Positions 47,611 to 61,559 of a stretch of DNA of 64,000 nt are shown piece by piece. The notes under the pieces were generated by a model. It was given only the letters and a program-made list of their open reading frames with translations, did no database searches and had not been told where the DNA came from. How positions within the stretch are numbered: position 1 is the stretch's first letter; every line of letters starts with the position of its first letter. The stretch spans positions 145,685 through 209,684 of the forward strand of contig JBAZKF010000001.1 in NCBI GenBank assembly GCA_041650895.1, in the 5' to 3' direction. The position numbers and the translations under genes are program-made. This DNA comes from Patescibacteria group bacterium (GTDB lineage Bacteria; Patescibacteriota; Patescibacteriia; 2-01-FULL-39-33).

Positions 47611-49050
47611 TTATTGCTGCTTTTTACCGCTAAGGATCCACTCGCACAGTGCTAGAAATCCTAAAAAATAAATTTTAACGTGTTTCGGGCTTCTTAGACG
47701 TTTCACATAATTAAGGATAATCCGCGGACGAAAATAAAATTTACGGAAAAACAAGCGATTAGAAGCTATAAGTTCCTCCCGCGTCAAGCCGAACGGCACG
47801 AAAACCGGCTCCCATTCGTTCATTTTTTTCCAATCCTTATCAAAAGTCCCATACTGGGAATAATTGCCGCTGATTTCCGAACCGGGCAATGGCGTCATTA
47901 GAGTGCAATGGAATTCGTCAATTTTAAGTGACAGCGCAAAATCGATCGTTTCTTTGATCGTCTCGCGGGTTTCCCCGGGATGGCCCATGATAAAAAACGC
48001 GCCCACATCAATTCCTGCCCCCTTAGTCCAGTTGATAGCGCTTCTAATCTGCTCCTTAGTGGTGTTTTTCTTAATTAATTTTAAAATGTTTTCATTGCCT
48101 GATTCCACGCCATACCAAACCTGCCAACAGCCCGCCTCCTTCATTACTTTAAACATTTCCGGCTCAACCATATCAACGCGGGCTAAGGCTGTCCAGACCA
48201 AATCCAATTTTTTTTCTTTCAGCAGTTCGCAAAATTTGTAAAGACGCGGCTTAAAAACCGTAAAATTATCATCGCGAAACTGAATCTCCCTGATGCCGTA
48301 TTTATAATAAAGCAACAAGACCAGCTCCATCATATATTCCGCAGAATGAGCCGACAGGACGTTGCCATAAACGCTTCTAGTGCAGAATGTGCACTGACCA
48401 GGACAACCTCTTGAAGTAACTAAAGTTGAAGCGGGAAATTTTTTAACCGTATGAACCGGCGGAGAATATTTGACTAAATCGGGCAATAAATCAAAAGCCG
48501 GTTGAGGTAAGGCGTCAAGATCAATAATTCTGGCACGCGGCGCTGTAATAATAAATTCATCCGACACATCAGATTTAAAAATCAATCCATTAACCTGTCT
48601 TAACTGATCCTTGCTCAAGCCGTTTTGAGATAATATCGATAATAACTCAACCAAGGTCCTCTCACCCTCGCCGATAATCCCCAAATCGAATTTGGGATAA
48701 AGCTTCAGGGTTTCTTCCGGCGCCGTGCTCAAATGATGGCCGCCGATCAAAGTGATTATGCCAGGTTTGATCTTTTTAATTTCCCGAGCAACCGCCGCCG
48801 CGTTATCAATAGAGATAGTAACTGCCGTAAAACCAACAATGGCGGGATCGGCTGCCAAGACTCGTTCTGTAGTTGCAACGGTGCCCAAATCCATAATTTC
48901 CGCATCAATAATACTAACCTCATGACCCGCCGCCCTGACGGCAGCCGCCAAATATACCAGTCCCAAAGGAATAGACTCTCCCCCGCTTTTGCTTTTTATC
49001 CCATATCTTTCTTCTAAAGTTAATGGGGGTTGGACTAAAATTATTCTCAT
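47611..49050 (-). CDS. cobalamin-binding radical SAM enzyme, paralog 7
   Basis: MRIILVQPP..., DALPQPAFDLLP, TSRGCPGQCTFCTRSV. Confidence 0.9.
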   Translation of the reverse strand: MRIILVQPPLTLEERYGIKSKSGGESIPLGLVYLAAAVRAAGHEVSIIDAEIMDLGTVATTERVLAADPAIVGFTAVTISIDNAAAVAREIKKIKPGIITLIGGHHLSTAPEETLKLYPKFDLGIIGEGERTLVELLSILSQNGLSKDQLRQVNGLIFKSDVSDEFIITAPRARIIDLDALPQPAFDLLPDLVKYSPPVHTVKKFPASTLVTSRGCPGQCTFCTRSVYGNVLSAHSAEYMMELVLLLYYKYGIREIQFRDDNFTVFKPRLYKFCELLKEKKLDLVWTALARVDMVEPEMFKVMKEAGCWQVWYGVESGNENILKLIKKNTTKEQIRSAINWTKGAGIDVGAFFIMGHPGETRETIKETIDFALSLKIDEFHCTLMTPLPGSEISGNYSQYGTFDKDWKKMNEWEPVFVPFGLTREELIASNRLFFRKFYFRPRIILNYVKRLRSPKHVKIYFLGFLALCEWILSGKKQQ

Positions 49051-49068
49051 AATAGAAAATACTAAAAA

Positions 49069-49764
49069 TTAAAAACGATATTTAATCAGGGTCCAAATAG
49101 CAATTAAACCGTCGCGAAGTTTTATCTTTTTACCTTCTTCTTGCGAGCGGGGAATATAGGAAATCGGCACTTCATGAATCTTAACGCCCTGCCGAGAAAT
49201 CTTGGCTGTTATTTCCGGACAGAATTCAAAACCCTTGGCTTCAATATTTATCTTATCCAAAACTTGTTTGCTGACCATTTTATAGCAAGTCGCCTCATCT
49301 GTTATGGCAGTGCCGTAAAGAAAATTAGTCAACCAAGTCAGATAGACTCCACCCAAATAATAAAACCAGCCGGCCTTAGGACTTTTCTTTCTGGTCAATC
49401 CTAAACGCCTAGAACCATAAACCGCTTGAGCGCCGCATTCTTCTGCTTCATTTATCAATCTTTTCAGATCATTGGGATTATATTCTAAATCAGCATCCTG
49501 AACGACAGCATAATCGCCGGTTGACACTTTGTAACCGGCAGCTACGGCCGCGCCCTTGCCTTGATTTTCAGGCAGATGGATAATGATATATTTATCCTGA
49601 TAGCGATCAAGCACTTCTCGGGAATTATCGGTGGAACCGTCATTGACTATAATAATTTCTTTGTTAACGCCTAAATCAGCTTCCGACAATTTTTGTAAAA
49701 TAGCCCCGATGGTTTTTGCTTCGTTGTAGGCCGGAATAACAATGGAAAGTTTATTGATTTTCAT
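49069..49764 (-). CDS. glycosyltransferase family 2, soluble DPM1-like (paralog of 57163..57858)
   Basis: LSIVIPAYNEAKTI ... IIVNDGSTDNS ... QDADLEYNP. Confidence 0.85.
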   Translation of the reverse strand: MKINKLSIVIPAYNEAKTIGAILQKLSEADLGVNKEIIIVNDGSTDNSREVLDRYQDKYIIIHLPENQGKGAAVAAGYKVSTGDYAVVQDADLEYNPNDLKRLINEAEECGAQAVYGSRRLGLTRKKSPKAGWFYYLGGVYLTWLTNFLYGTAITDEATCYKMVSKQVLDKINIEAKGFEFCPEITAKISRQGVKIHEVPISYIPRSQEEGKKIKLRDGLIAIWTLIKYRF

Positions 49765-49768
49765 AATA

Positions 49769-50425
49769 TTATTTCTTTTTGCAAACTAAATAATAACCGC
49801 TAGTTAAAATGCCATTTTCCGGCCGGGAATGCCTGATATCGCCGAACTCACTCTTTATCGGCGAAGGCAGCCAAACCAATAATTTAACTAATAAAAATAA
49901 CGGGATTTTCATTAAGCGACCGCCGAATAAATTGGCTTGAAAACCTATTCTTTGTAATAAAGCGGCCAAAGTATCCTTAGTTGACAACTCATTGCGCAAT
50001 TCGATTATTTCCCAGCCGTCACTAAATAAAAACCTTAGGCCATACTTGGTAAAACGATAGTAATCATTGGGAATATCATGAAGAGGAAAAATAAACCTGG
50101 TAGTCAAAAGCAACACTCCGCCTGATTTCAGGACTCTTTTCATCTCGGCGACGGCTAAGTGAGGCGAATGCAAATGCTCCAGCAATTCAGTACATAAAAT
50201 CAGATCGAATTTATCATCGGTAAAAGGCAACTGATGAGCGTCGCCCACCACATCAACATTAATCCCCGGCCGATGGTCAAAACCGATGCGGTTGGGAAAT
50301 AAACTTTTGTAAGAACCGTCACCACAACCCAAATCAAGCACCAATTTTTCCGTTGACTGGTACTGGGCGATGAAAGCATCGATTTTTTTTCTGGTTATTT
50401 TGGCAGTTAGAAATTCTTTAATCAT
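49769..50425 (-). CDS. class I SAM-dependent methyltransferase
   Basis: VLDLGCGDGSY and LILCTELLEHL. Confidence 0.8.
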   Translation of the reverse strand: MIKEFLTAKITRKKIDAFIAQYQSTEKLVLDLGCGDGSYKSLFPNRIGFDHRPGINVDVVGDAHQLPFTDDKFDLILCTELLEHLHSPHLAVAEMKRVLKSGGVLLLTTRFIFPLHDIPNDYYRFTKYGLRFLFSDGWEIIELRNELSTKDTLAALLQRIGFQANLFGGRLMKIPLFLLVKLLVWLPSPIKSEFGDIRHSRPENGILTSGYYLVCKKK

Positions 50426-50434
50426 TTTTGCCGT

Positions 50435-51553
50435 TTATGAATTAATGAAAGAGACGATTTTTTCAGCGCGCTTCTTCCAAGTATATTTTTCCGCATCGCT
50501 CCGGGCGCAACGAGAGATATTCTCGGCTAATTGCCGTTGCGTCAAAGCCCGGTTAATGCCCGCCGCTAAAAGATCAGAATTATCCGGCTCAACTAAAATA
50601 GCATTATTATCATTTAAAATTTCCCTCAAAGAAGGCAAATTAGAAGCGACTATAGGTACGCCACTGGCTAAATATTCAAAAAGTTTAAGCGGTGAAGTAT
50701 AAAATTGCGATATTTTTTCCTGCCCGGAATTAGGCAAAACCAAAACATCAGCGGCCTTCAGATAGAACGGGATTTGCTTATGCGGCTGATGGCCGAGAAT
50801 TAAGACATTAGCGCTATTGACATTTTTTTTCTTAAAAGCTTCAACATCTTCCTTAGTACCGCCGATAAAAACAACCAGGGATTCATTAGACAGATACCGG
50901 GCGGCTTCAGCCAAAACCTGCGCTCCTTTCCAACCATAAAGATGGCCGGTGTAAACAATCAATTTTTTATCCAACGGCAAATTAATTTTTTTCCTGGACT
51001 CCGTGGCGGTAATATTCAGATCAAACTCAGCCAAATCAACGCCATCGGGAGCAATTAATATTTTATCAGCAGCGATTCCGTTGCTGGCCAGAGCGGATTT
51101 AATAAAATCAGTCAGAACAACAATCCGTTGAAAACACCGCCAAAAAAGACGATGATACGATTTGATTGTTGCAGGCAAGGAGTGAAGTTCCAAAAAAGAC
51201 GATTTAAAAAATAAGCCGAACTGTTCTTCGCGTGTATATATAATATCATACTCCCTGAAAGACACGTAGATTCTGCTGGCTAACAAAAAAGTTGCAGTCG
51301 CCAGCCAAAAAGCCAGATTACCAATTGTTTTATCCAAAAAAATCAAATCTAAACAGGGTAATTCGGTAATCTTAAAATTAGCCGGTAAACCGTAATAGTT
51401 GAAGGGATCGGCTTTAAGATTATTAGAACGCCGCGGTACCACCAATTCAACTTGATGACCCAAAACAGAGAAAGTCTCGCACATTTTCATGATTTGCCAG
51501 CCATGAGCCTTCTCGGTCGGTATTCTGATGTTTGCCAAATAAATTATTTTCAT
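50435..51553 (-). CDS. glycosyltransferase family 4
   Basis: Start at MKIIYLANI directly after the upstream stop. C-terminal FEYLASGVPIVASN. Confidence 0.8.
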   Translation of the reverse strand: MKIIYLANIRIPTEKAHGWQIMKMCETFSVLGHQVELVVPRRSNNLKADPFNYYGLPANFKITELPCLDLIFLDKTIGNLAFWLATATFLLASRIYVSFREYDIIYTREEQFGLFFKSSFLELHSLPATIKSYHRLFWRCFQRIVVLTDFIKSALASNGIAADKILIAPDGVDLAEFDLNITATESRKKINLPLDKKLIVYTGHLYGWKGAQVLAEAARYLSNESLVVFIGGTKEDVEAFKKKNVNSANVLILGHQPHKQIPFYLKAADVLVLPNSGQEKISQFYTSPLKLFEYLASGVPIVASNLPSLREILNDNNAILVEPDNSDLLAAGINRALTQRQLAENISRCARSDAEKYTWKKRAEKIVSFINS

Positions 51554-53709
51554 TTTTTTGTTTTTACTAAATAACACATTTGATGGCCGAACATATTAGG
51601 CCAAATATCTTTAAGACGAAAACCATTAGACGATTTAAATCTAACAACATCTAGACCCAAATCATTCAGCCAAATCAAAAAATCCTTATGGCTCCAAAAC
51701 CGCAGGTGTTCTGACGGATGTGTCATCCATTGGGTAAAAAATCTTCCTCCAAACATTAAGCCGAAACGATAACGGTAAAAAGCGGAATTAGGAACTGAAA
51801 TTGCCAAATAGTCGGCATTATCTTTTATTTTAGAGATTAAATCCTCGGGATATTTGATGTGTTCCAAAACCTCTGAAATCACAATGTAATCATATCGGTC
51901 GTCCAAATTAAAATCAGCGCTCTCGATATCGGCTTTTACTCCGTCAATGCCGGCTTGCTTTAAGTTATTGATTACTAATCCGGAAATATCCAAACCACTG
52001 ACCCGGCAACCCTTCTTTTCTTTTAATTCATAAGGCAGACGCGAACTGCCACAGCCAAGATCCAGAATTTTAGCTCCGGGCTTAATCCAATCCATAAAAA
52101 TCACTTCCCTTTCCATTAATTTGCTACGCATCTTGAAGCCGCGCTCTGACCAATACTGATCATAATCAAGTTGTTTGGTGATATTTTTGAAATCAGGGCG
52201 ACGCGTACCCTCAAAGAAGAACGATTTCGAGACGCGAGCTATGATTTTGTCAAAATAATACTTAAGCGCGCGCTTGACTTTGAATAATATAAAATCTAAA
52301 CGCTCTTTTTTGTTACCCAACTTAAGCCAGATTTTTGCCAGCTTCAAAAAGTGGGTTAAGCCTCTCTTTTTTACGCCCTCAAATATCTCCTGACGCCAAC
52401 TCTCAAATAATTTTCCCAACTCCTGGGAATCACTGACGCCAGAACGATTGAATTTGTCCTGGCTTTGGAAAAAAGAGAAATTACAATAATCGGAGGTATT
52501 GATACGACCCTTAAAAAAATCATTAAAAAGCTTCGTCCCTGGCAGGGCGGTAAAGATACTGAAAGAATAATGATCAGCTTTGATTTTCTTGGCGAATTCA
52601 AAGGTTTGCCGCATTTCTTCTTTAGTTTCGCCGGGCAGGCCGATCATAAAGCCGGCTTCGCGACGGATGCCGTGTTTCCGGCAAAGTTCCAGGGCTTTTT
52701 CCACATCGGATAATTTTATCCTTTTATTAATGATTTCATCTAAAACGCGCTGATTACCCGATTCAACGCCAAAATCAAGCTGTAAACAGCCACTTTCGGC
52801 CATTAACTTGATGATTTCTTCATTAACCAAATCCACTCGCGATTGAGCCCCCCAATACAGACCGGCTTCCTTCATAATCTGGCAAACCTTCCTAACATGA
52901 TCGTAATTAGCCGTTAAGGTATCATCAGCAAACCAAATTCCTTCAACGCCATATTTATCCCTTAAAAGATAGATTTCTTTTTTGATGTTTTCCAAACTGC
53001 GATAACGCACCTGACGCCCAAAAACCTGATTGCAGGCGCAAAAAGTGCAGCTGTAGGGACAGCCCCGGGAAGCCATAACCATCACCGCTTTCATAGGGAT
53101 GCCTCGGATAATATCGTCCCAGATCTTAGTATAGTAGGTCATATTCACCTTATCATAAGCCGGCAAGCTTAAATCAGTCAGATCCATATACTCCCGCCGT
53201 TCATTGATGACAACTTCATTATTCTGATCCGGCCAGGCGATGCCCTTCACCTTCCTTAGATCGGGCGACTCCTGCTGTAATTCCTTAATTAATTCAAAAG
53301 TAGTTTGTTCGCCTTCGCCGATAATGGCGGCATCAAAGCCGGAATTAACTACGCCAATCGGATCGGCTGTAGCTTGAGGCCCGCCGATAATCGAAAAAAC
53401 TTTGAGTTCTTTTTTAATCCTCTGATTCATTTCCACAGCTTCGGCAATTTCCATGGTCGTGGCAGTAAAACCGATTACTTGCGGCTTAAACTCTAAAACA
53501 GCCTTAATGATCTCCTCCTTGGCTCTTTCACGATTATCGTATTGATAGCCTCTGTCCGCGAATATTTTCCCGTCGATAATCAAATTATCAAAACCATGAT
53601 CCCGCAAATATCCGGAAATATACATCAAACCCAAAGAATAACGATGCTCCTTGAGCCGTTTAGGGGGAAGAATAAAAATCAAATCTTTATCTTGGCTAAT
53701 TTTTATCAT
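51550..53709 (-). CDS. fusion: cobalamin-binding radical SAM (paralog 8) plus C-terminal class I SAM-dependent methyltransferase domain
   Basis: TDLSLPAYD and ASRGCPYSCTFCACNQ in the N-terminal 470 aa. The C-terminal 200 aa carry ILDLGCGSSRLPY ... YDYIVISEVLEHI (MT motifs I and II). Confidence 0.85.
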   Translation of the reverse strand: MIKISQDKDLIFILPPKRLKEHRYSLGLMYISGYLRDHGFDNLIIDGKIFADRGYQYDNRERAKEEIIKAVLEFKPQVIGFTATTMEIAEAVEMNQRIKKELKVFSIIGGPQATADPIGVVNSGFDAAIIGEGEQTTFELIKELQQESPDLRKVKGIAWPDQNNEVVINERREYMDLTDLSLPAYDKVNMTYYTKIWDDIIRGIPMKAVMVMASRGCPYSCTFCACNQVFGRQVRYRSLENIKKEIYLLRDKYGVEGIWFADDTLTANYDHVRKVCQIMKEAGLYWGAQSRVDLVNEEIIKLMAESGCLQLDFGVESGNQRVLDEIINKRIKLSDVEKALELCRKHGIRREAGFMIGLPGETKEEMRQTFEFAKKIKADHYSFSIFTALPGTKLFNDFFKGRINTSDYCNFSFFQSQDKFNRSGVSDSQELGKLFESWRQEIFEGVKKRGLTHFLKLAKIWLKLGNKKERLDFILFKVKRALKYYFDKIIARVSKSFFFEGTRRPDFKNITKQLDYDQYWSERGFKMRSKLMEREVIFMDWIKPGAKILDLGCGSSRLPYELKEKKGCRVSGLDISGLVINNLKQAGIDGVKADIESADFNLDDRYDYIVISEVLEHIKYPEDLISKIKDNADYLAISVPNSAFYRYRFGLMFGGRFFTQWMTHPSEHLRFWSHKDFLIWLNDLGLDVVRFKSSNGFRLKDIWPNMFGHQMCYLVKTKK

Positions 53710-54775
53710 ATTTGTTTTTGGGGCCTAATAACTCTTCAATAAGACCGCCATCTAACAATTGTTTGACTAAAATTTCCGGCCGGCATAATCGGCAATAAAT
53801 CTCATAACCATTATCGGCGATTTTTTCATAATTTATTCTACCCTCTTTCAGCGCTAAGATTTTAGACGCCAAATCCTGGGCATCGGCCAAACGGCAAAAA
53901 ACCGCATCTTGGCCGTCCGTAAGCAATTCCCTGATAGCCGAAGAATCACCGGTCAAAACCGGCCGCTTGGCCGCTAAGCCCTCATAAACCTTATTAGGGA
54001 TAACTCTTTTAGCTTTATCAGTATGGCCGAATATACCTAGGCAAACATCAGCCTCCGCCAAATAGCCCCTTAAATTATCAATGGACACGGGCTCTATAAA
54101 ATTAACATTACTGACTTTAAGCCGGCTCGCCAAGTCAATTATTTCCCGGTAAGTCTGACCGTGGCCGATAATATTAAATTTGATATTTTCCCCCTCTAGA
54201 ATTTTCGTCGCTTCAATAATATACTCTATGCCCTGTAAAGGAATAAAACTGCCATGAAAATGAACCAAAAAATAATCTTTTTTCTTAGGAGTAATAGGAA
54301 AAATAACCTTATCATCACAACCGACTAAAACCCGATAAAACTTTTTTCTCTCCAACTTTAATTCTTTTACAAAATAGTCAATCTGGGCATTGGTATCCAA
54401 TAAAATTTTATCCGCCAAACGGCAGGATAACCAATCCAATAACCAGTAATACCTTCCTTTAAGGCTTTGCGCTTTAACGATTTTCCTATCTTCAACCATG
54501 GAATCAAAAAAAGAGTAAAAAGCGTCAAAAACAATCGGTTTAACGGTTAAAAGCCTGGCCAAAATCATGGCCTGAAACCCCGGAAAACCAACGATCATAA
54601 TATCATATTTCTTACGGATTGACCAGTGTTTTTTAATTAAATCCCAATACTTCAACGGCCCTTTGACGCTTGTTCGGCATTCAATCACATCAACGCCGTT
54701 TAACTTAAAACCGCCAAGCAAAATCCTATTGCGGCTATAATCAGGATCATAAATTCCGAAATAACAAATAATCAT
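53696..54775 (-). CDS. GT-B fold glycosyltransferase (GT4-like)
   Basis: C-terminal half NFIEPVS ... VIPNKVYEGLAAKRPVL with GT-B nucleotide-sugar-binding character. The N-terminus is divergent. Confidence 0.6.
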   Translation of the reverse strand: MIICYFGIYDPDYSRNRILLGGFKLNGVDVIECRTSVKGPLKYWDLIKKHWSIRKKYDIMIVGFPGFQAMILARLLTVKPIVFDAFYSFFDSMVEDRKIVKAQSLKGRYYWLLDWLSCRLADKILLDTNAQIDYFVKELKLERKKFYRVLVGCDDKVIFPITPKKKDYFLVHFHGSFIPLQGIEYIIEATKILEGENIKFNIIGHGQTYREIIDLASRLKVSNVNFIEPVSIDNLRGYLAEADVCLGIFGHTDKAKRVIPNKVYEGLAAKRPVLTGDSSAIRELLTDGQDAVFCRLADAQDLASKILALKEGRINYEKIADNGYEIYCRLCRPEILVKQLLDGGLIEELLGPKNKYDKN

Positions 54776-54779
54776 AATA

Positions 54780-55514
54780 TTATAGTTTGCCGAATTTAAT
54801 CATGGCTCTGAATTGAACCGGGCTGACGGCAGAATCGACGGCATTGCGTTTGAGCAACCATCGGTCGCTCTTAGGTCTGACAACGCCCTTAGCCACAGTC
54901 AAAGCCGCCTTAAAGCCGCTAGCTTTCAGTAACCCAATGATTTGCTGGTTATAGCGACCATAGGGATAGGCAAAATAAGACACCGGTTTGCAATATTCCC
55001 GTTCAATGAAGGCTTTGGACTCGATAATTTCCTGCCTAGCCTCAGTCAAACTGATTTTAGTCAGCTTGGCATGGCTGACGGTGTGGGGTTCAAAATCAAT
55101 CAAACCGGAAGCGGCCATCTCCGAAACCTGATCCTTGTCCAACAATGGCAGATCAATAGACGGCAAACCGGTCGCTAAAAAAATCGTAGCGGGAAAATTA
55201 TATTTTTTCAATAAAGGAAAAGCTATGGAATAATTGTCTGTATAACCGTCATCAAAAGTAATGGCGACTGTCCGAGGTGGAATTTTACCTGCCGTAAGAT
55301 AGTCCAATAATGCAGACAAAGAAACAATATTATATCGCTGTTGTTTCAGATAAGCCAACTGAGCTGAAAAATCCTGGGACTCAACGGTGAAAAATCTGCC
55401 ATTATCGCCTACGGAATGATACATCAAAATAACTGCGCGATTAGGCAGGGCGGGGAGAAAGGCCAGTAAGCTAGATAAAATATTTTTTAAAAAAAACTTA
55501 ATTCTCTTCGCCAT
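54780..55514 (-). CDS. polysaccharide deacetylase (CE4, NodB-homology)
   Basis: VILMYHSVGD ... AITFDDGYTDNY ... EPHTVSHAKL give the conserved Asp-Asp and His motifs. Confidence 0.8.
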   Translation of the reverse strand: MAKRIKFFLKNILSSLLAFLPALPNRAVILMYHSVGDNGRFFTVESQDFSAQLAYLKQQRYNIVSLSALLDYLTAGKIPPRTVAITFDDGYTDNYSIAFPLLKKYNFPATIFLATGLPSIDLPLLDKDQVSEMAASGLIDFEPHTVSHAKLTKISLTEARQEIIESKAFIEREYCKPVSYFAYPYGRYNQQIIGLLKASGFKAALTVAKGVVRPKSDRWLLKRNAVDSAVSPVQFRAMIKFGKL

Positions 55515-56589
55515 AGGCTTTTTTGATATTAACGACTAAATTTTTAATACTATAAGAAGCTACGACAATGCGACGCAACTCAACAGCCATAACCTGCTTC
55601 TCGGATGAATCCAATTCAGACAATTTCTTTATTTTGACCGCCAATTCCCGACTGTCAGCTTTTTCCAATAATAACAAATCTTGGTAGTCGCCCAGGATCA
55701 CGGAAAAAGTTTGATTATAAACTACGGCCGGCACGCCACAGGCCAACGATTCCAAAACCACTTTGTCCAATCCCCCGGTGGGGCACAAGTTAATGCTTAA
55801 ATCGGCTTGCTGATAATAATAAGGCAGGTCCTTATTGGGGATATTGCCTATCCAATCAATATAATCTTCCAGTCGGCGTTTTTTTATTTCCTCTTTCAAT
55901 AAGGCAGCGTATCTCAAACCATCAAGATTCGGCGGTGAGCCGATAAAAGACAAGGTGATATTTTTTATTCCTAATTCATGCACCAAAATATCAACAGCTT
56001 TAATCAATAATAATTGATTTTTTATTTCGCTGATCCGGCCGACGCTGACGATTTGTAATTTATCCTGTCGAGCCGTCGCCCAATCTTTAAGACAGAATTT
56101 ATCAATATCAATGCCATGGCCGACGATTTTCACTTTGGCACTAGCAAGCCGGAAACTTTCGGGCGAGGCGGTAAAAATAATATCAGCCAACAATTCAGCT
56201 AATCTTAATTTAAAATTAACCGCTTTATGCGCATACCAGAGGCCGATAATTTTGCCCTGCAAACGCCAGATCAAACCAGCCAGAATGACATAAACAACAT
56301 TCATGTGAACAAAAACAGCATCATAATCATGGCGAACCAACCATAAATATTTATAAAAACGCCACAAGTAACGCCAACGCGACGGCCTGTCTTCCTTGCC
56401 CAAAGATAAAACCCTGACATTGGCAGGCAAATCATACTTACCTTTATATAGGCAGATAACAGTCACTTGAGAAAAATTATTGGCAAACTCTTTAAGCCAA
56501 TCATGAAAAAATCCCAACAGACCGTCGGCGTCATCCACTTTCTGAGTCAAGATTAATAATTTCAATTTTTTATTTTTTGGCAATGGCAT
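55498..56589 (-). CDS. glycosyltransferase family 4
   Basis: KVVLESLACGVPAVVYN near the C-terminus; about 363 aa. Confidence 0.75.
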   Translation of the reverse strand: MPLPKNKKLKLLILTQKVDDADGLLGFFHDWLKEFANNFSQVTVICLYKGKYDLPANVRVLSLGKEDRPSRWRYLWRFYKYLWLVRHDYDAVFVHMNVVYVILAGLIWRLQGKIIGLWYAHKAVNFKLRLAELLADIIFTASPESFRLASAKVKIVGHGIDIDKFCLKDWATARQDKLQIVSVGRISEIKNQLLLIKAVDILVHELGIKNITLSFIGSPPNLDGLRYAALLKEEIKKRRLEDYIDWIGNIPNKDLPYYYQQADLSINLCPTGGLDKVVLESLACGVPAVVYNQTFSVILGDYQDLLLLEKADSRELAVKIKKLSELDSSEKQVMAVELRRIVVASYSIKNLVVNIKKAYGEEN

Positions 56590-57172
56590 ATAAATTCAAA
56601 CCTAATTCGAAGCTGCCGCCGGTGATTTTATCGGCCGCAAAGCCGGTGGCGGAAAACTGTTTAAATAATTCCTGTCGACTATAGAACTGCTGATGCTCAC
56701 CGATCTCATCCGGTGAAACTATTTTAAACGCGGCCAATAACGACAGCAGACCCTTAGTTTTTCCCCAGGGAGTCGTCACTATAAGCAACCCGCCGGGAAC
56801 AAGCGCTCGATAAGATTGAGCCAGAATATTTAAAGCCGCGGTTTCATCCAAATGTTCCAAAACTGCCAGCATGGTTACAACATTAAAACAACTGGGACTG
56901 ACCGGCAAATTATCGCCGGTTTTGAATTCGTATTTTTTTAAGCTAACTCCGTCGATCATTCCTTCGCTGACCGATTTATCCAATCCGACTTTGGCCGAAA
57001 ACTTAACCTGCGCCAAAAAATAAGGATAAGAACCGCAGCCGATATCAAGAATAGCTCCCGACCTTAAATCAGCAGGAATCAACCTGTCAACTTTATTAGC
57101 CCGACGCCGGGCCAAGTATTTCTCTAAGACGCCATACCCCCTGGTAGGAGCGGCGGAACCGGTTATTTCCAT
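56570..57172 (-). CDS. class I SAM-dependent methyltransferase
   Basis: ILDIGCGSYPY and VVTMLAVLEHL. Confidence 0.8.
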   Translation of the reverse strand: MEITGSAAPTRGYGVLEKYLARRRANKVDRLIPADLRSGAILDIGCGSYPYFLAQVKFSAKVGLDKSVSEGMIDGVSLKKYEFKTGDNLPVSPSCFNVVTMLAVLEHLDETAALNILAQSYRALVPGGLLIVTTPWGKTKGLLSLLAAFKIVSPDEIGEHQQFYSRQELFKQFSATGFAADKITGGSFELGLNLYAIAKK

Positions 57173-57858
57173 AAGTTAAACTTAATAATATACCAAATCG
57201 CCGCCAAACCATCTTTCCAGCTTATTTTCTTGCCCTCTTCATAAGTGCGGCCGGCATAAGAAATACCGACTTCATAAATCCGGAATTTACCCCTGGCTAT
57301 CAGGGCGGTAATCTCCGGTTCAACGCCGAATCGATTGGCAGTCAGGCGAGTTTTCAGATAATCAATAACCGGACGATTGAACGCCTTATAGCAAGTCTCC
57401 ATATCTGTTAAGGTCAAATTACTCATAATATTGGAAAAAATAGTCAAAAAAGTATTACCCAGATAATGCCAAAAAAAGAAAACACGGTGAGGTTTGCTGG
57501 TAATGAAACGAGAACCATAAACAACATCAGCCTTGCCGTCAATTATCGGCCCCAATATTTCCTGGTACTCTTGCGGATTGTATTCTAAGTCAGCGTCTTG
57601 AATAATCAATAGATCGCCGGTTGCCACATTAAGGCCACGTTTGATGGCCGAGCCTTTGCCCTCGTTCTTATCCTTTAGAATTACGACGCATTTATCCCGC
57701 GGGCTTGAAATAATATCTCTAGTGCCGTCGGTGGAACCATCATCAATAATAATAATTTCCTTCTCTACGCCGGCAAGCGGCGCTGCCTCCACCTGGCGCA
57801 GTAGTTCCAAGATAGTTTTATGTTCATTATAGACTGGTATGATAACTGACAATTTCAT
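57163..57858 (-). CDS. glycosyltransferase family 2, soluble DPM1-like (paralog of 49069..49764)
   Basis: LSVIIPVYNEHKTI ... IIIDDGSTDGT ... QDADLEYNP. Roughly 45% identical by eye to 49069..49764. Confidence 0.85.
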   Translation of the reverse strand: MKLSVIIPVYNEHKTILELLRQVEAAPLAGVEKEIIIIDDGSTDGTRDIISSPRDKCVVILKDKNEGKGSAIKRGLNVATGDLLIIQDADLEYNPQEYQEILGPIIDGKADVVYGSRFITSKPHRVFFFWHYLGNTFLTIFSNIMSNLTLTDMETCYKAFNRPVIDYLKTRLTANRFGVEPEITALIARGKFRIYEVGISYAGRTYEEGKKISWKDGLAAIWYIIKFNLWK

Positions 57859-57873
57859 AAAAATAATTAATAT

Positions 57874-59346
57874 TTAATCGCGTTTAGTATTGATGTCCGG
57901 AGATTTAGGCAAGAAAAAAGAGACTAAAGCCATAAAACCATCAAACAAAATTTTTATATCGTCTAATGATCTAATGCTAAAAATCTTCTTAAGGATGAAT
58001 TTCGGACGAAAATAAAAACTGCGATACATGATTTTATATAAATTCTTTATTTCTTCCGCTGAAAGATTCTCCAATCTCATAACCGGCTTAGCCAAATTAA
58101 AATCATCCCAATTTTCGCTCAACAACAAATCACGTTCCTTGGCCCAATTAAACATGGCCGTGCCGGGAAACGGCGTAGTAATATTGACGATCAGCAAATC
58201 GGGATTTATTTTCTTAACAAAACGGATGTTCTTTTCAATCACTTGGCGACTGTCGCCGGGATTGCCGACCATGAAAGCCAGACGGCATTCTATCCCCGCC
58301 TGCTTAGTCCATTTGACGGCATTGATCACTTGCGGCAAATTGATTTTTTTATTGATATTCTTCAATACGGCCTCATCAACATTTTCCACCCCATACATGA
58401 TCTGATGACAACCGGCGTCTGACATTTTCCGCAACATGGCCTCGTCAACATAATCAACTCGGGCAAAACACGTCCAAGACAAATCCATTTTATTTTTTAT
58501 CAGCAGATCGCACAAGTCAATGACGTTCTGACGAAAAACAGTAAAAGTATCATCATAAAACATGATCTGCCTGATACCGTAATTATCGGCCAAGTATTTT
58601 ATCTCGGCAAAAATCCCGGTGGCCGACTTAAAGATCATCTGATCACCCAAGGTTTTATTGCAGAAAGTGCAACGCCCCGGACAACCTCGGCTAGTCATTA
58701 AACTCATGGCCGGCAACTTCTTATACGAGCCCTTAGCCGGCCGATATTTATCAATCGGCAATAAATCATAAGCCGGCAAAGGCAGATCATCCAAATTGGC
58801 AATCCGCCGACGCGGCGCGTTACGGATTATTTGTTTTTCGCCATTCAATTCTTTCTTATAAACCACGCCGTCAATCTCTTCAATCTTCTTGCCGGATAAT
58901 ATTTCTCCCAAAGTAATCTCCCCTTCGCCGATAACCACCGCATCAACAAATGGTTGATTAATAACCTCATCAGTAACAAAGGTTGCATGAACGCCACCGA
59001 AAATAATCAAAGCATTAGGATAATATAATCGGCAAATTTCCGCCGCCTGATAAGCCTTTTTAATTTGTCCGGTGGTGGCAGTAAAGCCGATCACTCTAAT
59101 ATCCCTGTGATGATCAACAAAATTTTCCTTTAGATAATCGCCGAAGGCCTGGACCGAGGGGCAGGAAACTTCACAATCAATTATCTCTACACTTTGATCC
59201 TGTTGACGGACATAGCCGGCAATGGAAGCCAGCCCCAAAGGAGGGAAATTTGAGTTAATCTCACGCCAAATATTATTCTCATCGCCATAATAATCAGGCG
59301 GAGCGATCAACAAACAATCCAAATTTTTTTGATTATCTTGCGACAT
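57874..59346 (-). CDS. cobalamin-binding radical SAM enzyme, paralog 9
   Basis: DDLPLPAYDLLP, TSRGCPGRCTFCNKTL. Confidence 0.9.
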   Translation of the reverse strand: MSQDNQKNLDCLLIAPPDYYGDENNIWREINSNFPPLGLASIAGYVRQQDQSVEIIDCEVSCPSVQAFGDYLKENFVDHHRDIRVIGFTATTGQIKKAYQAAEICRLYYPNALIIFGGVHATFVTDEVINQPFVDAVVIGEGEITLGEILSGKKIEEIDGVVYKKELNGEKQIIRNAPRRRIANLDDLPLPAYDLLPIDKYRPAKGSYKKLPAMSLMTSRGCPGRCTFCNKTLGDQMIFKSATGIFAEIKYLADNYGIRQIMFYDDTFTVFRQNVIDLCDLLIKNKMDLSWTCFARVDYVDEAMLRKMSDAGCHQIMYGVENVDEAVLKNINKKINLPQVINAVKWTKQAGIECRLAFMVGNPGDSRQVIEKNIRFVKKINPDLLIVNITTPFPGTAMFNWAKERDLLLSENWDDFNLAKPVMRLENLSAEEIKNLYKIMYRSFYFRPKFILKKIFSIRSLDDIKILFDGFMALVSFFLPKSPDINTKRD

Positions 59347-59351
59347 AGCTT

Positions 59352-61559
59352 TTAAAGGAATCGACTAAAAAACGCTCTGAATCCGTCACTGGTCAACAAC
59401 CATAAATAGTCAACCAAAACAATAACGATAACGACCGCAACCCGACTCGGCCAGCGGTAAAAATATTTTCTTAACCCGTTAACGGCCAACAAGGTTAATA
59501 GCAAAGCCAGGACAAAATACAAACGAGATGACACACCGGTCCAAAGCAAAAACATAAACGACGGCAGAATCAGGCACTTAACCAGGAACCTCTGATCGGC
59601 GGTAAACTCCCGCCATTTAATCAATCCTAACGGCACCAAAAGCCAAGCAGCCAGATAAACGCCGACGATACTCTTAACAACAAAAAACGGCTGATATTCG
59701 GAACCGCTGGGAGCGCTAATGCCCAGTTTATACCAATCCAAATATGAATAATGATAAATGAAATAAACCACGATTTGCCAAGCGATTAAGGGCAAGCCGA
59801 CCGCTAAGGTTGATAAAAATAATTTTTTGAGTTTTTCGGCTCGAGGCAGTTGCGGATGGAAACATATCACCAGATACAGGAAAGCCATACCCAAACTGCT
59901 ATATTCTTTCCATAACATGCCAACAACAACCATCAACGAAGTTAAAAATAAATTAAAGTTGTTAGGCCGTTTATAAAATCTAATGACGCCGATAGCGGCC
60001 AAAACCCAGAATAATTGGGCGCCCGACTCGGTAAACAAATCCAAGCCATACTTAAGTAACGGATAGGAAGAAATATAAATCAACGCTCCCAGAAGCGCCA
60101 TTCCTCTATTTTTAAAAAACAAATAAAATAAAACGTAAACGGCTAAAGCCAAAAAAACATAAAATATAATCGCCTCTATCTCAAAAGCTAACGATAGATT
60201 GCCACCGGTTAAAAACGACAGTCCGGCAATACCCATAGGCCCCAACGGTTTTAAAATTCTGGAAGGAAAACTCTCCGCCATTTGTCCCATAAACAGCTTA
60301 GCCGTTTCCATATACTGATAAGCATCGCCGTTAATGCTAAAACCGACAAAATTGAGCCGAATAAACACGTTCAACGCTACCGCGGTTAAGATTAAAAGAA
60401 TCGGCCAAAAATGATTATTGGTCGACTTGGTCGGCCGGCACTTTTTGTCTATGGCTGTTTGCCAGCTTTTCAGATAAAGCGCCAAATTTTCCTCTCGGCC
60501 GGGCAAAATGTTAATCGCCGATTCGGCCGACTGGCTGAGTTGCCGGCGCAAGCCAATATTCTGAATAATCTTTTTCATGGCGTCAGCTAATTTTTCTTCG
60601 TCGCCAACGGGCGTGATTAATGCGCTGACTCCGTCTTTCAACACCTCACCGGCGCAACCGACATCAGTCATCACTACCGCCAAACCGCAACTGGCGGCTT
60701 CTATTATCACCATCCCCCAACCCTCATAATCAGAACTCAAAACATAACTATCGGCTGAGTTGTAATAATCATAAATATTGTCAGTCCAACCGATCAAAAA
60801 GATTTTATCCTCCAAGCCGGATTCTTTTATTTGTTGGGCGAGTTTGTCTTTTTCCGGACCGCGACCGACTATAAGCAAAACCGCCTCCGGCAATTGCCGG
60901 GCAACCGTGGCGAAAGCTCTGATCAGCAACGGCAGATTTTTCTGTTTTACCAATCGAGCCATAGTCAAAAAAACAGTTTTGCCGACTAAGCGGCCGAAAA
61001 TCTCCGGCTTAGTTTCGCTGAATTGCTTCTCGGGCTTAACATAGACAGGAACAACAACAATTTTATCTTCGGCTATATGCAAATCATTAACCAAAGTATC
61101 CTTTATCCGCTCACTGACTGCGCGCACGCTGTCGGCTCGCTTAATCAGCCAGCGCCCCAGATAATAACGGCAAAAGTTAATAGGATTTTCATTGCGCCAA
61201 TAAGTCGCGCTAAAAAAATCGCCATGTTCCTGAATATTCAAAGCGCTCTTGAATTTCCTAGCCAGCAATAATCCCATCAGCGACAATTCAAAAGGATCTT
61301 GAACCGTTATGACATCATAATTATTCTGGCGGAACAGTTTTTTCGCTAACCGATACATATTGAATAGTGCCGCTAATCGGTTGCCGCCACCCGTGCCGTA
61401 AGCCGTTACTTTTTCTGATAATTTAATTTCTTGCGCTGGCGTAGCGGGCACGATAATATCATAAGCGTCCGTCATAACGCCATACTCAATCAAACGCCGA
61501 GTTACGGGTGATGAGGAAACGAATACGCCTTTATCGGTGCCTAAGTTTAATACTTTCAT
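59352..61559 (-). CDS. fusion: N-terminal GT4 glycosyltransferase (about 370 aa) plus C-terminal polytopic membrane domain (about 360 aa)
   Basis: DYEGWGMVIIEAASCGLAVVMTDVG (GT4 EX7E region) at about aa 280-305. From about aa 375 onward there are 10-11 TM helices (WPILLILTAVALNVF ...). Confidence 0.75.
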   Translation of the reverse strand: MKVLNLGTDKGVFVSSSPVTRRLIEYGVMTDAYDIIVPATPAQEIKLSEKVTAYGTGGGNRLAALFNMYRLAKKLFRQNNYDVITVQDPFELSLMGLLLARKFKSALNIQEHGDFFSATYWRNENPINFCRYYLGRWLIKRADSVRAVSERIKDTLVNDLHIAEDKIVVVPVYVKPEKQFSETKPEIFGRLVGKTVFLTMARLVKQKNLPLLIRAFATVARQLPEAVLLIVGRGPEKDKLAQQIKESGLEDKIFLIGWTDNIYDYYNSADSYVLSSDYEGWGMVIIEAASCGLAVVMTDVGCAGEVLKDGVSALITPVGDEEKLADAMKKIIQNIGLRRQLSQSAESAINILPGREENLALYLKSWQTAIDKKCRPTKSTNNHFWPILLILTAVALNVFIRLNFVGFSINGDAYQYMETAKLFMGQMAESFPSRILKPLGPMGIAGLSFLTGGNLSLAFEIEAIIFYVFLALAVYVLFYLFFKNRGMALLGALIYISSYPLLKYGLDLFTESGAQLFWVLAAIGVIRFYKRPNNFNLFLTSLMVVVGMLWKEYSSLGMAFLYLVICFHPQLPRAEKLKKLFLSTLAVGLPLIAWQIVVYFIYHYSYLDWYKLGISAPSGSEYQPFFVVKSIVGVYLAAWLLVPLGLIKWREFTADQRFLVKCLILPSFMFLLWTGVSSRLYFVLALLLTLLAVNGLRKYFYRWPSRVAVVIVIVLVDYLWLLTSDGFRAFFSRFL

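What the first reader, a model, noticed from the sequence alone, without database searches (positions are those of the whole stretch)
47611..59346. Duplicated three-gene module: B12-rSAM, soluble DPM1-like GT2 and class I methyltransferase
The triads 50425-47611 (MT, GT2, rSAM) and 59346-56570 (rSAM, GT2, MT) contain clearly paralogous GT2s. Both are about 231 aa with no TM helix and share VIIPxYNExKTI, KEIIIxDDGSTD, QDADLEYNP, VYGSR, CYK, EPEITA, EGKKI and DGLxAIW. Duplication of a functional tailoring cassette with gene-order shuffling indicates modular evolution of the pathway. Each module may install a distinct modified sugar.
Basis: seen in the sequence. Interest (0 to 1): 0.55.

Follow-up and report, generated by a model that had tools for sequence, protein, structure and literature searches.

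The report
Two old sugar-tailoring gene modules
Two look-alike three-gene sets in a tiny groundwater-type bacterium are real, but they are anciently diverged versions of a widespread module rather than a recent duplication; each probably makes and chemically edits a lipid-carried sugar for the cell surface.

Summary
Both triads lie at the stated coordinates on the minus strand. The two 231-aa, TM-less GT2s are 45% identical (E=6e-63), against 23-31% to the window's other GT2s.

The "duplicated cassette" reading holds only in part.
- **GT2s:** each has over 100 database relatives closer (52-89% and 61-93%) than its partner. Some are from other phyla. DNA similarity is saturated.
- **rSAMs:** A and B are 36-37% identical, no closer to each other than to two other B12-rSAMs in the window.
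- **Methyltransferases:** they share only the class I fold (15 bits).

Still, the modules are real units. GT2_B, rSAM_B and MT_B travel together in five loci from CPR-type clusters, in two gene orders. GT2_A and rSAM_A travel together in three loci.

Fold and profile searches place the GT2s with the polyprenyl-phosphate sugar synthases ArnC, GtrB and DPMS. Gene neighbourhoods and fusion proteins link them to GT-C (PMT_2) transferases, class I methyltransferases and radical SAM domains.

Best model: each module builds a lipid-linked monosaccharide, tailors it with the radical SAM enzyme and the methyltransferase, and hands it to an adjacent GT-C enzyme. I rate this a new variant of three-component glycosylation. 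The chemistry is unproven.

The parts
49769..50425 (-). MT_A: class I SAM methyltransferase, 218 aa, with a hydrophobic C-terminal segment near residues 166-185
   Evidence: Pfam Methyltransf_23 and Methyltransf_11 above the gathering score. Kyte-Doolittle maximum 1.70 at residue 166. An orthologue at 79% sits in the syntenic locus L001, and a 36% relative lies one gene away from the A-type GT2 in L002.
49069..49764 (-). GT2_A: TM-less 231-aa GT2 with the fold of polyprenyl-phosphate glycosyltransferases (DPM1/ArnC/GtrB-like)
   Evidence: PF00535 at 122.7 bits. A family profile (alignment A1, both subtypes) matches DPMS 5mlz, ArnC and GtrB across the whole catalytic domain. The AF2 model has pLDDT 85.8, and the top 25 Foldseek PDB hits are all ArnC, GtrB or DPMS with TMq 0.63-0.82.
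47611..49050 (-). rSAM_A: radical SAM enzyme with a B12-binding domain, 479 aa (CPGQCTFC cluster motif)
   Evidence: PF02310 and PF04055 above the gathering score. Best NCBIfam matches are HpnJ, ApyD and BchE, all far below their cutoffs. It forms a 100%-bootstrap clade with the rSAMs next to A-type GT2s in L001 and L002.
45035..47599 (-). Fusion of a GT-C glycosyltransferase (PMT_2) with a radical SAM/SPASM domain, 854 aa, 11 nt downstream of rSAM_A. It is the likely acceptor-side transferase of module A.
   Evidence: Pfam PMT_2 33.4 bits (cutoff 26.1), Radical_SAM 85.1, SPASM 30.4. In L171 an A-type GT2 (59% identical) is fused to this same architecture in one 1076-aa protein.
56570..57172 (-). 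MT_B: class I SAM methyltransferase, 200 aa, overlapping the end of GT2_B by 10 nt
   Evidence: Pfam Methyltransf_23 at 50.8 bits. Orthologues at 81%, 50%, 46% and 36% lie beside B-type GT2s in L001, L171, L173 and L172.
57163..57858 (-). GT2_B: paralogue of GT2_A, 231 aa, TM-less, same DPM1/ArnC/GtrB-like family
   Evidence: 45% identical to GT2_A. PF00535 at 111.7 bits. More than 100 homologues at 61-93% identity.
57874..59346 (-). rSAM_B: radical SAM enzyme with a B12-binding domain, 490 aa (CPGRCTFC)
   Evidence: PF02310 and PF04055. Every rSAM next to a 70-90%-identical B-type GT2, whether upstream or downstream, falls in one 100%-bootstrap clade with it.
59352..61559 (-). GT4 glycosyltransferase fused to an 8-TM C-terminal domain that may be GT-C-like, 5 nt upstream of rSAM_B
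   Evidence: Pfam Glycos_transf_1 at 138.9 bits for residues 184-346. Residues 381-716 score 67.6 bits against a custom HMM of GT-C proteins from related loci. hhalign against Pfam-validated PMT_2 proteins gives only 47% probability, so this is inconclusive.
50435..56589 (-). Genes between the modules: GT4 (50435-51577), B12-rSAM::class I MT fusion (51550-53709), GT4 (53696-54775), polysaccharide deacetylase (54780-55514), GT4 (55498-56589)
   Evidence: Pfam. The same order is found in syntenic L001.
24414..29251 (+). A third set on the same theme: GtrB-like GT2 with C-terminal TM helices, class I MT, deacetylase+DUF3473, FemAB-like acyltransferase, B12-rSAM
   Evidence: Pfam. TM-like segments in the GT2 at residues 211-255.
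20705..22992 (-). PpgS-like small GT2 (20705-21367), sugar epimerase (21371-22411) and a GtrA-family protein (22525-22992). GtrA is the flippase of lipid-linked sugar in the GtrABC system.
   Evidence: NCBIfam PpgS 165 bits, below the 370 cutoff. Pfam GtrA_DPMS_TM 112.9 bits and Epimerase 128.5 bits.

Best explanation
**What it is.** The two triads are anciently diverged versions of one kind of tailoring module. They sit inside a surface-glycan gene cluster of at least 45 kb in a Patescibacteria (CPR) genome related to Buchananbacteria. They are not a recent duplication.

**Proposed mechanism.**
1. The TM-less 231-aa GT2 transfers a monosaccharide from a nucleotide sugar to a polyprenyl phosphate carrier at the cytoplasmic face of the membrane. 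This is inferred from fold, profile matches, neighbourhood and fusions.
2. The adjacent radical SAM enzyme and the class I methyltransferase modify that lipid-linked sugar. The radical SAM step could be C-methylation or an HpnJ/OxsB-like rearrangement. The methyltransferase step would be O- or N-methylation. This step is inferred, and neither the chemistry nor the exact substrate has been shown.
3. After flipping, a neighbouring GT-C (PMT_2-type) transferase places the modified sugar on a glycan or protein outside the membrane. This is inferred.

**History.** GT2_A and GT2_B are two old paralogous subtypes, presumably with different sugar specificity. Each travels with its own rSAM partner. 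The methyltransferases were recruited separately.
For: **GT2 paralogy and its age**
- GT2_A and GT2_B are 45% identical, but each has more than 100 closer relatives (52-89% for A, 61-93% for B).
- GT2_B is 60% identical to a Deltaproteobacteria homologue and 56% to a Saprospiraceae one.
- A-like plus B-like pairs share a locus in other phyla: L015, L057, L114 and L122.
- Codon-aligned DNA identity is 54.7%, with 41.6% at third positions. Between the modules there are only short DNA patches.

**Polyprenyl-phosphate GT assignment**
- A family profile matches DPMS, ArnC and GtrB over positions 2-209.
- The top 25 Foldseek PDB hits for the AF2 model are exclusively these enzymes.

**Link to GT-C**
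- The PMT_2::rSAM-SPASM gene lies 11 nt downstream of rSAM_A.
- PMT_2 genes lie beside or near the GT2 in L002, L005, L006, L009, L172, L174 and many loci from other phyla.
- Fusion proteins exist: GT2::GT-C in L020 and L074, and A-type GT2::PMT_2::rSAM::SPASM in L171.

**Link to methyltransferases**
- GT2::MT fusions occur in L041, L053, L066 and L168.
- MT genes lie beside the GT2 in about ten unrelated contigs.
- B12-rSAM::MT fusions occur in the window (51550-53709) and in P0366 and P0453.

**Co-inheritance of GT2 and rSAM**
- The rSAM_B and rSAM_A clades each have 100% bootstrap and track the GT2 type.
- A Mantel test of GT2 against rSAM identity gives r=0.84, p=0.0002.
- Five of the sixteen closest rSAM_A orthologues have the same longest-contig length as a GT2_A orthologue.

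**Other**
- A GtrA-family gene is present in the cluster.
- Genes 29255-63990 are co-directional, with gaps of -28 to +63 nt.
Against: - No biochemical evidence exists.
- Neither GT2 reaches the NCBIfam cutoff of any named polyprenyl-phosphate sugar synthase: AglJ 100-112 against 325, ArnC 69-71 against 529, PpgS 59-62 against 370.
- The GT2s lack the TM anchor found in ArnC, GtrB and archaeal DPMS.
- No GT2::B12-rSAM fusion was found.
- In unbiased samples only 4 of 95 family members have an adjacent B12-rSAM. The rSAM is therefore an accessory restricted to certain lineages, and its substrate could be something else.
- The pairing is imperfect. L005 and L091 have an A-like GT2 beside an rSAM that groups with the B clade.
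- Deep nodes of both NJ trees are unsupported.
- The closest solved rSAM relatives split between a cobalamin-independent sugar dehydratase (AprD4), methylases (MgmA/QCMT, CysS, TokK) and a ring-contracting enzyme (OxsB). Neither the chemistry nor cobalamin use can be called.
Confidence: 0.6

Rival explanations
1. One reading: a three-gene tailoring cassette was duplicated as a unit within this lineage, and its gene order was then shuffled.
For: The same three domain types occur in both sets. The GT2s are each other's best match in the window. rSAM_A and rSAM_B are reciprocal best BLAST hits, 292 bits against 249-273 for the next best.
Against: - Each GT2 and rSAM_A have many much closer relatives in other CPR classes and other phyla.
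- There is no DNA similarity beyond short motif patches.
- Profile scores show that rSAM_A and rSAM_B are not specifically sister: 396 against 388, and 375 against 380.
- MT_A and MT_B score 15 bits against each other, and each is closer to MT 25307-26011.
- Both modules are already present in separate form in L001 and L171.
Confidence: 0.04
2. The GT2s are ordinary Leloir glycosyltransferases that extend a pyrophosphate-linked repeat unit or the polymer. The rSAM and MT enzymes modify nucleotide sugars or the finished glycan, not a lipid-linked monosaccharide.
For: The cluster contains an initiating phosphoglycosyl transferase (Bac_transf, 23051-24400), a Wzx-type flippase (38217-39551) and many GT4s, which is typical of repeat-unit assembly. 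The GT2s have no TM segment. They are below cutoff for every named polyprenyl-phosphate synthase.
Against: The closest structures are exclusively polyprenyl-phosphate GTs, aligned over the whole protein including the C-terminal helices. Fusions to GT-C domains and widespread adjacency to PMT_2 genes are what a supplier of lipid-linked sugar donor would show. From my own knowledge, not checked here, human DPM1 and mycobacterial PpgS also lack a TM anchor.
Confidence: 0.2
3. The B12-rSAM enzymes, and perhaps the MTs, act on something other than sugar, such as the polyprenyl carrier, membrane lipids or a peptide. In that case their position beside the GT2s reflects only shared regulation in one long operon.
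For: Ten B12-rSAM paralogues are scattered through the cluster, most of them not beside a GT2. Some of the better NCBIfam matches are lipid- or peptide-modifying enzymes: HpnJ, HpnR, the ladderane-type rSAM and ApyD. Most members of the GT2 family lack any rSAM neighbour.
Against: - GT2-type-specific co-inheritance holds across gene-order changes.
- The Mantel correlation is high.
- rSAM genes directly abut GT2 or PMT_2 genes in CPR, DPANN archaea, Elusimicrobia and Planctomycetota.
- No precursor peptide genes or lipid synthesis genes were seen in the cluster.
Confidence: 0.12

Closest known systems
Three-component extracytoplasmic glycosylation (GtrA/GtrB/GtrC; ArnC/ArnD/ArnT; pentofuranose systems of Kelly et al. 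2024, summarised in PMC11194591)
   Same: A GT2 with the ArnC/GtrB/DPMS fold, a GtrA-family gene and GT-C/PMT_2 transferases beside or fused to the GT2. From my own knowledge, ArnD shows that a lipid-linked monosaccharide can be edited before transfer.
   Different: The GT2 has no TM domain. The editing enzymes would be a B12-domain radical SAM enzyme and a class I methyltransferase, which I found in no described three-component system. One GT-C partner is itself fused to an rSAM/SPASM domain.
Hopanoid side-chain pathway HpnI (GT2) / HpnK (deacetylase) / HpnJ (B12-type rSAM); calditol synthase Cds
   Same: A GT2 attaches a sugar to a lipid, a deacetylase acts on it, and a radical SAM enzyme is proposed to contract the sugar ring (PMC13459092). 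HpnJ is the best NCBIfam match of rSAM_A, rSAM_B and r27833. Two deacetylases lie in the cluster.
   Different: Scores of 186-252 bits are far below the HpnJ cutoff of 577.6. No hopanoid genes were seen in the window. The GT2 here resembles polyprenyl-phosphate GTs (HpnB, the only hopanoid-associated GT2 model that matched, scored just 22-34 bits against a 379 cutoff).
B12-dependent rSAM sugar C-methylases (GenK, GenD1, Fms7, MoeK5; listed in PMC12931638)
   Same: They share the B12-binding plus radical SAM architecture and act on sugar carbons. From my own knowledge, MoeK5 works on a lipid-phosphate-linked saccharide.
   Different: These enzymes belong to antibiotic pathways, not surface glycan clusters. 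No specific sequence relationship was shown. The solved methylases TokK and CysS score only 25-35 bits.
AprD4 (PDB 6fd2), radical SAM diol dehydratase of apramycin biosynthesis
   Same: It is the best solved-structure match of both rSAM_A and rSAM_B, at 80-82 bits. From my own knowledge, it acts on a sugar ring.
   Different: From my own knowledge, AprD4 does not use cobalamin. The NCBIfam AprD4 model scores 95-117 bits against a cutoff of 500.
TM-less polyprenyl-phosphate sugar synthases: human-type DPM1 and mycobacterial PpgS (NF058614)
   Same: They are small (about 226-260 aa) GT2 catalytic domains. From my own knowledge, they lack a membrane anchor and supply a GT-C enzyme.
   Different: PpgS scores 59-62 bits against a cutoff of 370. 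A different GT2 in the window (20705-21367) is the better PpgS-like candidate at 165 bits.

Membership tests
Polyprenyl-phosphate glycosyltransferases (GT2; DPM1/DPMS, GtrB, ArnC) | GT-A fold with a DxD metal/nucleotide motif | tested here: met
   PF00535 at 112-123 bits. The QDADLE motif is invariant across 13-17 family members. The AF2 model has pLDDT 85.8.
Polyprenyl-phosphate glycosyltransferases (GT2; DPM1/DPMS, GtrB, ArnC) | Whole-domain structural similarity, including the helices that follow the GT-A core, with members of this family as nearest neighbours | tested here: met
   The top 25 Foldseek PDB hits are all ArnC, GtrB or DPMS, with TMq 0.63-0.82 over 205-244 alignment columns. 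The profile matches positions 2-209 to DPMS residues 23-230.
Polyprenyl-phosphate glycosyltransferases (GT2; DPM1/DPMS, GtrB, ArnC) | C-terminal transmembrane anchor (present in ArnC, GtrB and archaeal DPMS; from my own knowledge, absent in human DPM1 and PpgS) | tested here: not met
   The maximum 19-residue hydropathy is 0.9-1.0 and the protein ends at residue 231.
Polyprenyl-phosphate glycosyltransferases (GT2; DPM1/DPMS, GtrB, ArnC) | Transfer of a sugar from a nucleotide sugar to polyprenyl phosphate | not testable with these tools
   This needs an enzyme assay. Support is indirect: fusions and adjacency to GT-C genes.
Named equivalogs AglJ (TIGR04182), ArnC (NF007986), PpgS (NF058614) | Score at or above the curated NCBIfam cutoff | tested here: not met
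   AglJ 100.5/112.2 against 325. ArnC 70.9/68.8 against 529. PpgS 58.8/61.8 against 370.
B12-binding (class B) radical SAM enzymes | N-terminal B12-binding domain plus a radical SAM core with CxxxCxxC | tested here: met
   PF02310 at 89.9/65.2 bits and PF04055 at 89.6/74.9 bits, above the cutoffs. CPGQCTFC and CPGRCTFC are present in the sequences.
B12-binding (class B) radical SAM enzymes | Actual cobalamin binding and use | not testable with these tools
   The best solved relative is AprD4. From my own knowledge, AprD4 has the domain but does not use cobalamin.
HpnJ (TIGR03471) | Score at or above the 577.6-bit cutoff; hopanoid gene context | tested here: not met
   Scores are 186.3 (rSAM_A) and 218.8 (rSAM_B). 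No hopanoid genes appear among the annotated window genes.
Class I SAM-dependent methyltransferases | Rossmann-type MT domain with the glycine-rich motif I | tested here: met
   PF13489 at 59.6 and 50.8 bits. LDLGCGDG and LDIGCGS are present in the sequences.
Recent segmental (cassette) duplication | The copies are each other's closest relatives for every gene, with residual DNA identity | tested here: not met
   Closer homologues exist elsewhere for GT2_A, GT2_B and rSAM_A. DNA similarity is limited to patches of 144 nt or less at 72-86%. The rSAMs are not specifically sister. The MTs are unrelated beyond the fold.

The most novel reading that the evidence does not exclude
CPR bacteria, DPANN archaea and some Elusimicrobia may share an undescribed pathway. 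In it, a monosaccharide linked to polyprenyl phosphate is radically edited by a dedicated B12-domain radical SAM enzyme, by C-methylation or by HpnJ/Cds/OxsB-like conversion to a carbocycle or a contracted ring. It is also methylated, and a GT-C enzyme then exports it to the cell surface. With ten such rSAMs in one operon, a genome of about 1 Mb would be making a heavily radical-tailored surface glycan of unknown structure. It might also depend on scavenged cobalamin.
Probability: 0.3. Interest if true: 0.75.

Novelty: new variant of a known kind. Interest (0 to 1): 0.5.

Why it matters
CPR bacteria and DPANN archaea live attached to host cells. Their surface chemistry is almost unknown, because few of them are cultured. 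This window devotes at least 45 kb of a contig of about 0.96 Mb to one glycan cluster with ten radical SAM genes that carry a B12-binding domain.

Suppose the GT2-rSAM-MT-GT-C modules do tailor lipid-linked sugars. They would then add radical chemistry to the well-known three-component glycosylation scheme. They would also point to unusual sugars (C-methylated or carbocyclic) on the surface of ultrasmall symbionts, and to a large family of radical SAM enzymes with no assigned substrate.

The two modules are old paralogous units of a mix-and-match toolkit, not a fresh duplication.

Tried and rejected
- **Exact-sequence lookup of GT2_A:** it found no contig. The organism was identified instead through homologues, and through rSAM_A being 100% identical to P0241 on a 957,791-bp Patescibacteria contig.
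- **Collection scans:** That sample was useful for family-wide neighbourhood statistics, but not for a dense co-phylogeny.
- **First tree script:** it timed out and was replaced by a numpy NJ with bootstrap.
- **NJ trees:** trees of the GT2 family (257 sequences) and of the rSAMs (47 sequences) resolve only shallow clades. Deep nodes have 0-37% support, so I make no claim from deep topology.
- **C-terminal domain of 59352-61559:** I tested whether it is a GT-C. A custom HMM gave 67.6 bits, but hhalign gave 47% probability, Pfam found nothing, and the single-sequence AF2 model had pLDDT 51 and was unusable. The result is inconclusive.
- **GT2::B12-rSAM fusions:** I looked among the long relatives of rSAM_B and found none. 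The long proteins are MT fusions, tandem rSAMs or an intein insertion.
- **Literature:** searches combining radical SAM, CPR or Patescibacteria, glycosyltransferase and cobalamin found nothing relevant.
- **HpnJ membership:** considered and rejected on score and context.

Full report
**1. The observation**

All six ORFs exist at the stated coordinates on the minus strand.
- Module A, in transcription order: MT_A (50425-49769, 218 aa), GT2_A (49764-49069, 231 aa), rSAM_A (49050-47611, 479 aa).
- Module B: rSAM_B (59346-57874, 490 aa), GT2_B (57858-57163, 231 aa), MT_B (57172-56570, 200 aa).

Pfam confirms Glycos_transf_2, B12-binding plus Radical_SAM, and class I methyltransferase domains above their gathering scores.

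The two GT2s are 44-45% identical over about 230 residues, E=6e-63. They share five of the eight quoted motifs exactly and the other three with one or two substitutions in GT2_A. Neither has a TM-like segment. They are 23-31% identical to the two other DPM1-like GT2s in the window, at 24414-25292 and 20705-21367. The GT2s at 19258 and 34590 give no BLASTP hit to them at 1e-5.

**2. Organism and context**

Homologues are overwhelmingly from Patescibacteria (CPR). The closest is a 300-kb Candidatus Buchananbacteria contig (L001) that is syntenic across both modules, with GT2s 89-90% identical. rSAM_A is 100% identical to a protein on a 957,791-bp Patescibacteria contig.

The triads sit in a run of 27 co-directional genes (29255-63990) with intergenic gaps of -28 to +63 nt. 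With the genes from 19258 onward, this forms a glycan cluster of at least 45 kb. It contains:
- an initiating phosphoglycosyl transferase and a GtrA-family protein;
- a Wzx-type flippase, several GT4s and one GT9;
- two polysaccharide deacetylases and a LPG_synthase_TM protein;
- ten radical SAM genes with a B12-binding domain, and two more radical SAM genes (a SPASM fusion, 45035-47599, and 33498-34586).

**3. What the GT2s are**

A profile of the family matches Pyrococcus DPMS, ArnC and GtrB over essentially the whole catalytic domain. An AlphaFold2 model of GT2_A has pLDDT 85.8. Its 25 best Foldseek matches in the PDB are all ArnC, GtrB or DPMS, with TMq 0.63-0.82.

These three are all polyprenyl-phosphate glycosyltransferases. 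The window proteins correspond to that catalytic domain without the C-terminal TM helices. They fall far below the NCBIfam cutoffs of AglJ, ArnC and PpgS. I therefore file them as working like this family, not as orthologues of any named enzyme.

**4. Age of the GT2 paralogy**

- GT2_A has more than 100 database homologues at 52-89% identity, and GT2_B more than 100 at 61-93%.
- Scans of species-representative genomes and of metagenomes show the same roughly 230-aa family (QDADLEY[DN], TCYK) in many bacterial phyla and in archaea, at 40-53% identity to GT2_A.
- GT2_B is 60% identical to a Deltaproteobacteria homologue and 56% to a Saprospiraceae one. That is well above its 45% to GT2_A.
- Several unrelated loci carry an A-like and a B-like copy side by side: L015, L057, L114, L122 and the CPR-type locus L171.
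- Codon-aligned DNA identity is 54.7%, with 41.6% at third positions. blastn between the modules finds only motif-sized patches.
- The deep nodes of an NJ tree of 257 sequences are unsupported, so I rest the argument on these identity relations and not on topology.

The paralogy is real but ancient.

**5. The radical SAM enzymes**

rSAM_A and rSAM_B are 36-37% identical and are reciprocal best BLAST hits among the ten paralogues, at 292 bits against 249-273. However:
- rSAM_A has CPR orthologues at 64-91% identity, and relatives at 47-55% that include Elusimicrobia, Woesearchaeota, Thermoguttaceae and Nitrospirota.
- A profile of the rSAM_A family scores rSAM_B at 396 bits and r29255 at 388. 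A profile of the rSAM_B family scores r27833 at 380 and rSAM_A at 375.

These four paralogues are therefore about equidistant.

Each rSAM is nonetheless faithfully paired with its GT2 type.
- All rSAMs next to 70-90%-identical B-type GT2s (L001, L171, L173, L006, L172) form one 100%-bootstrap clade with rSAM_B, whether they lie upstream or downstream of the GT2.
- rSAM_A forms a 100% clade with the rSAMs beside A-type GT2s in L001 and L002.
- Pairwise identities of GT2s and of their adjacent rSAMs correlate (Mantel r=0.84, p=0.0002). Shared species history contributes to this.
- The pairing is not perfect. L005 and L091 combine an A-like GT2 with an rSAM that groups with the B clade.

**6. The methyltransferases**

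MT_A and MT_B give no BLASTP hit at 1e-5 and 14.9 bits by phmmer. Each is closer to the MT at 25307-26011, at 24-28 bits. MT_B orthologues (81%, 50%, 46% and 36% identical) accompany GT2_B in L001, L171, L173 and L172. A 36% relative of MT_A lies one gene away from the A-type GT2 in L002. So each MT belongs to its own module, but the two are not duplicates of one another.

**7. Verdict on the interpretation**

- Triad B is a conserved three-gene unit in at least five loci. The order is rSAM-GT2-MT in the window, L001, L171 and L173, and GT2-rSAM-MT in L172. L006 has GT2-rSAM without an adjacent MT.
- Module A is conserved mainly as GT2 followed by rSAM and then a PMT_2 gene (L001, L002), with the MT variably placed. 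L005 shows the same gene order, but its rSAM groups with the B clade.
- The modules are thus real and their order does vary. But they are two old lineages, not a cassette duplicated in or near this genome.
- An ancient duplication of a GT2-rSAM pair remains possible. It is neither supported nor excluded.

**8. Functional links**

*GT-C transferases.*
- The gene 11 nt downstream of rSAM_A encodes a PMT_2 (GT-C) domain fused to rSAM/SPASM.
- PMT_2 genes lie beside or near the GT2 in most CPR-type loci and in many other phyla. A CPR-built HMM finds one within 3 kb for 28 of 101 family members.
- The GT2 is fused to a GT-C-like membrane domain in L020 and L074.
- In L171 an A-type GT2 (59% identical) is fused to PMT_2::rSAM::SPASM in a single 1076-aa protein.

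*Methyltransferases.*
- GT2::MT fusions occur in L041, L053, L066 and L168, at least three of which are Acidobacteriota MAGs.
- B12-rSAM::MT fusions occur in the window (51550-53709) and, in both domain orders, among the nearest relatives of rSAM_B (P0366, P0453).

*Distribution of the GT2-rSAM pairing.*
- A B12-rSAM directly beside the GT2 is rare in unbiased samples (4 of 95). The four cases are two archaeal MAGs, one Elusimicrobia MAG and one unassigned metagenome contig.
- It is common in the CPR-directed sample (4 of 6).
- An Elusimicrobia locus (L174) shows GT2-MT-rSAM-MT-PMT_2-rSAM. A Thermoguttaceae locus (L175) shows rSAM-PMT_2.

*Upstream of module B.* This gene (59352-61559) is a GT4 fused to an 8-TM domain that may be GT-C-like (67.6 bits to a custom HMM; hhalign 47%). 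This is unresolved.

**9. Mechanism**

Shown: the domain identities, fold, paralogy, co-inheritance, adjacency and fusions.

Inferred:
1. The GT2 makes a polyprenyl-phosphate monosaccharide.
2. The rSAM and MT edit it on the cytoplasmic side.
3. A flippase moves it across the membrane. A GtrA-family gene is present in the cluster.
4. A GT-C enzyme transfers it to a surface glycan or protein.

This follows the GtrABC and ArnC/ArnT logic summarised in PMC11194591.

The radical chemistry is open. The best family matches are HpnJ, ApyD and BchE. The best solved relatives are AprD4, the glutamine C-methylase MgmA/QCMT (9ccb; PMC11796369, PMC12931638), OxsB, CysS and TokK. C-methylation, dehydration and ring contraction are all precedented. 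HpnI/HpnK/HpnJ provides a direct precedent for a GT2, a deacetylase and an rSAM acting on a lipid-linked sugar (PMC13459092).

**10. Novelty**

[quoted passage not shown] Four literature searches found no description of rSAM-containing glycan modules in CPR. I rate the system a new variant of a known kind.

The specific finding, two paralogous modules, is moderately interesting. The wider pattern, radical SAM tailoring attached to three-component glycosylation in ultrasmall organisms, is the part worth following up.

Noticed in passing
window 29255-63990 (minus strand): Twenty-seven co-directional genes with gaps of -28 to +63 nt include ten radical SAM genes with a B12-binding domain and two more radical SAM genes (a SPASM fusion at 45035-47599 and 33498-34586). 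That is a striking investment for a CPR organism whose contig is only about 0.96 Mb.
   Followed up: partly
window 24414-29251 (plus strand): A third set on the same theme: GtrB-like GT2 with C-terminal TM helices, class I MT, deacetylase+DUF3473, FemAB-like acyltransferase, and a B12-rSAM (the best HpnJ-like score in the window, 252 bits). An initiating Bac_transf gene (23051-24400) precedes it.
   Followed up: partly
window 45035-47599; L171 11723 to the end of the locus: A GT-C (PMT_2) domain is fused to a radical SAM/SPASM domain. In L171 an A-type GT2 is fused in front of the same architecture, giving a 1076-aa protein. I do not know of a description of a GT-C::rSAM fusion.
   Followed up: partly
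window 51550-53709; proteins P0366 and P0453: B12-rSAM fused to a class I methyltransferase. The same pairing occurs in both domain orders among the nearest relatives of rSAM_B.
   Followed up: partly
proteins P0372 (2331 aa), P0399 (2633 aa), P0404, P0411, P0421, P0454, P0459, P0387: Very long relatives of rSAM_B with up to seven matched stretches, probably multi-rSAM fusion proteins. One B12-rSAM (P0387) is interrupted by an intein with a LAGLIDADG endonuclease.
   Followed up: partly
L041, L053, L066, L168: B-like GT2 fused to a C-terminal class I methyltransferase (about 470 aa). Each has a second, unfused GT2 paralogue just upstream (59-61% identical). At least three of the four loci are Acidobacteriota MAGs.
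   Followed up: partly
L075 4405-7851; L080 7950-10004: By eye, not checked with Pfam: a Methanosarcinales ORF of 1148 aa seems to join a HAD-like phosphatase, a nucleotidyltransferase, a CofD/YvcK-like domain and the GT2. A Bryobacteraceae ORF seems to join a CofD/YvcK-like domain to a GT2 of this family.
   Followed up: no
window 59352-61559: GT4 fused to an 8-TM C-terminal domain that Pfam does not recognise. It is conserved in L171 and L173 (49-51% identity in that domain). The evidence that it is a GT-C is conflicting.
   Followed up: yes
window 6758-8620 and 31653-33488: Two large multi-TM proteins (13 and 11 hydrophobic segments) with no Pfam hit or only a sub-threshold PMT_2 hit. Both match the custom GT-C HMM weakly (40.5 and 29.2 bits).
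   Followed up: partly
protein P0121: A GT2 that is 93% identical to GT2_B is labelled Dehalococcoidia in NCBI. The contig was probably mis-binned from a CPR genome.
   Followed up: no
window 18201-18351 and 12347-15209: tRNA-Val(CAC) and tRNA-Ala(CGC) lie just outside the glycan cluster. Further out are LUD-domain and CCG-domain genes (lactate-utilisation type), MetRS and a TP_methylase-family gene.
   Followed up: no
window 30679-31653: A LPG_synthase_TM family membrane protein (111 bits) is embedded among the rSAM and GT genes. Its role in a glycan cluster is unclear.
   Followed up: no
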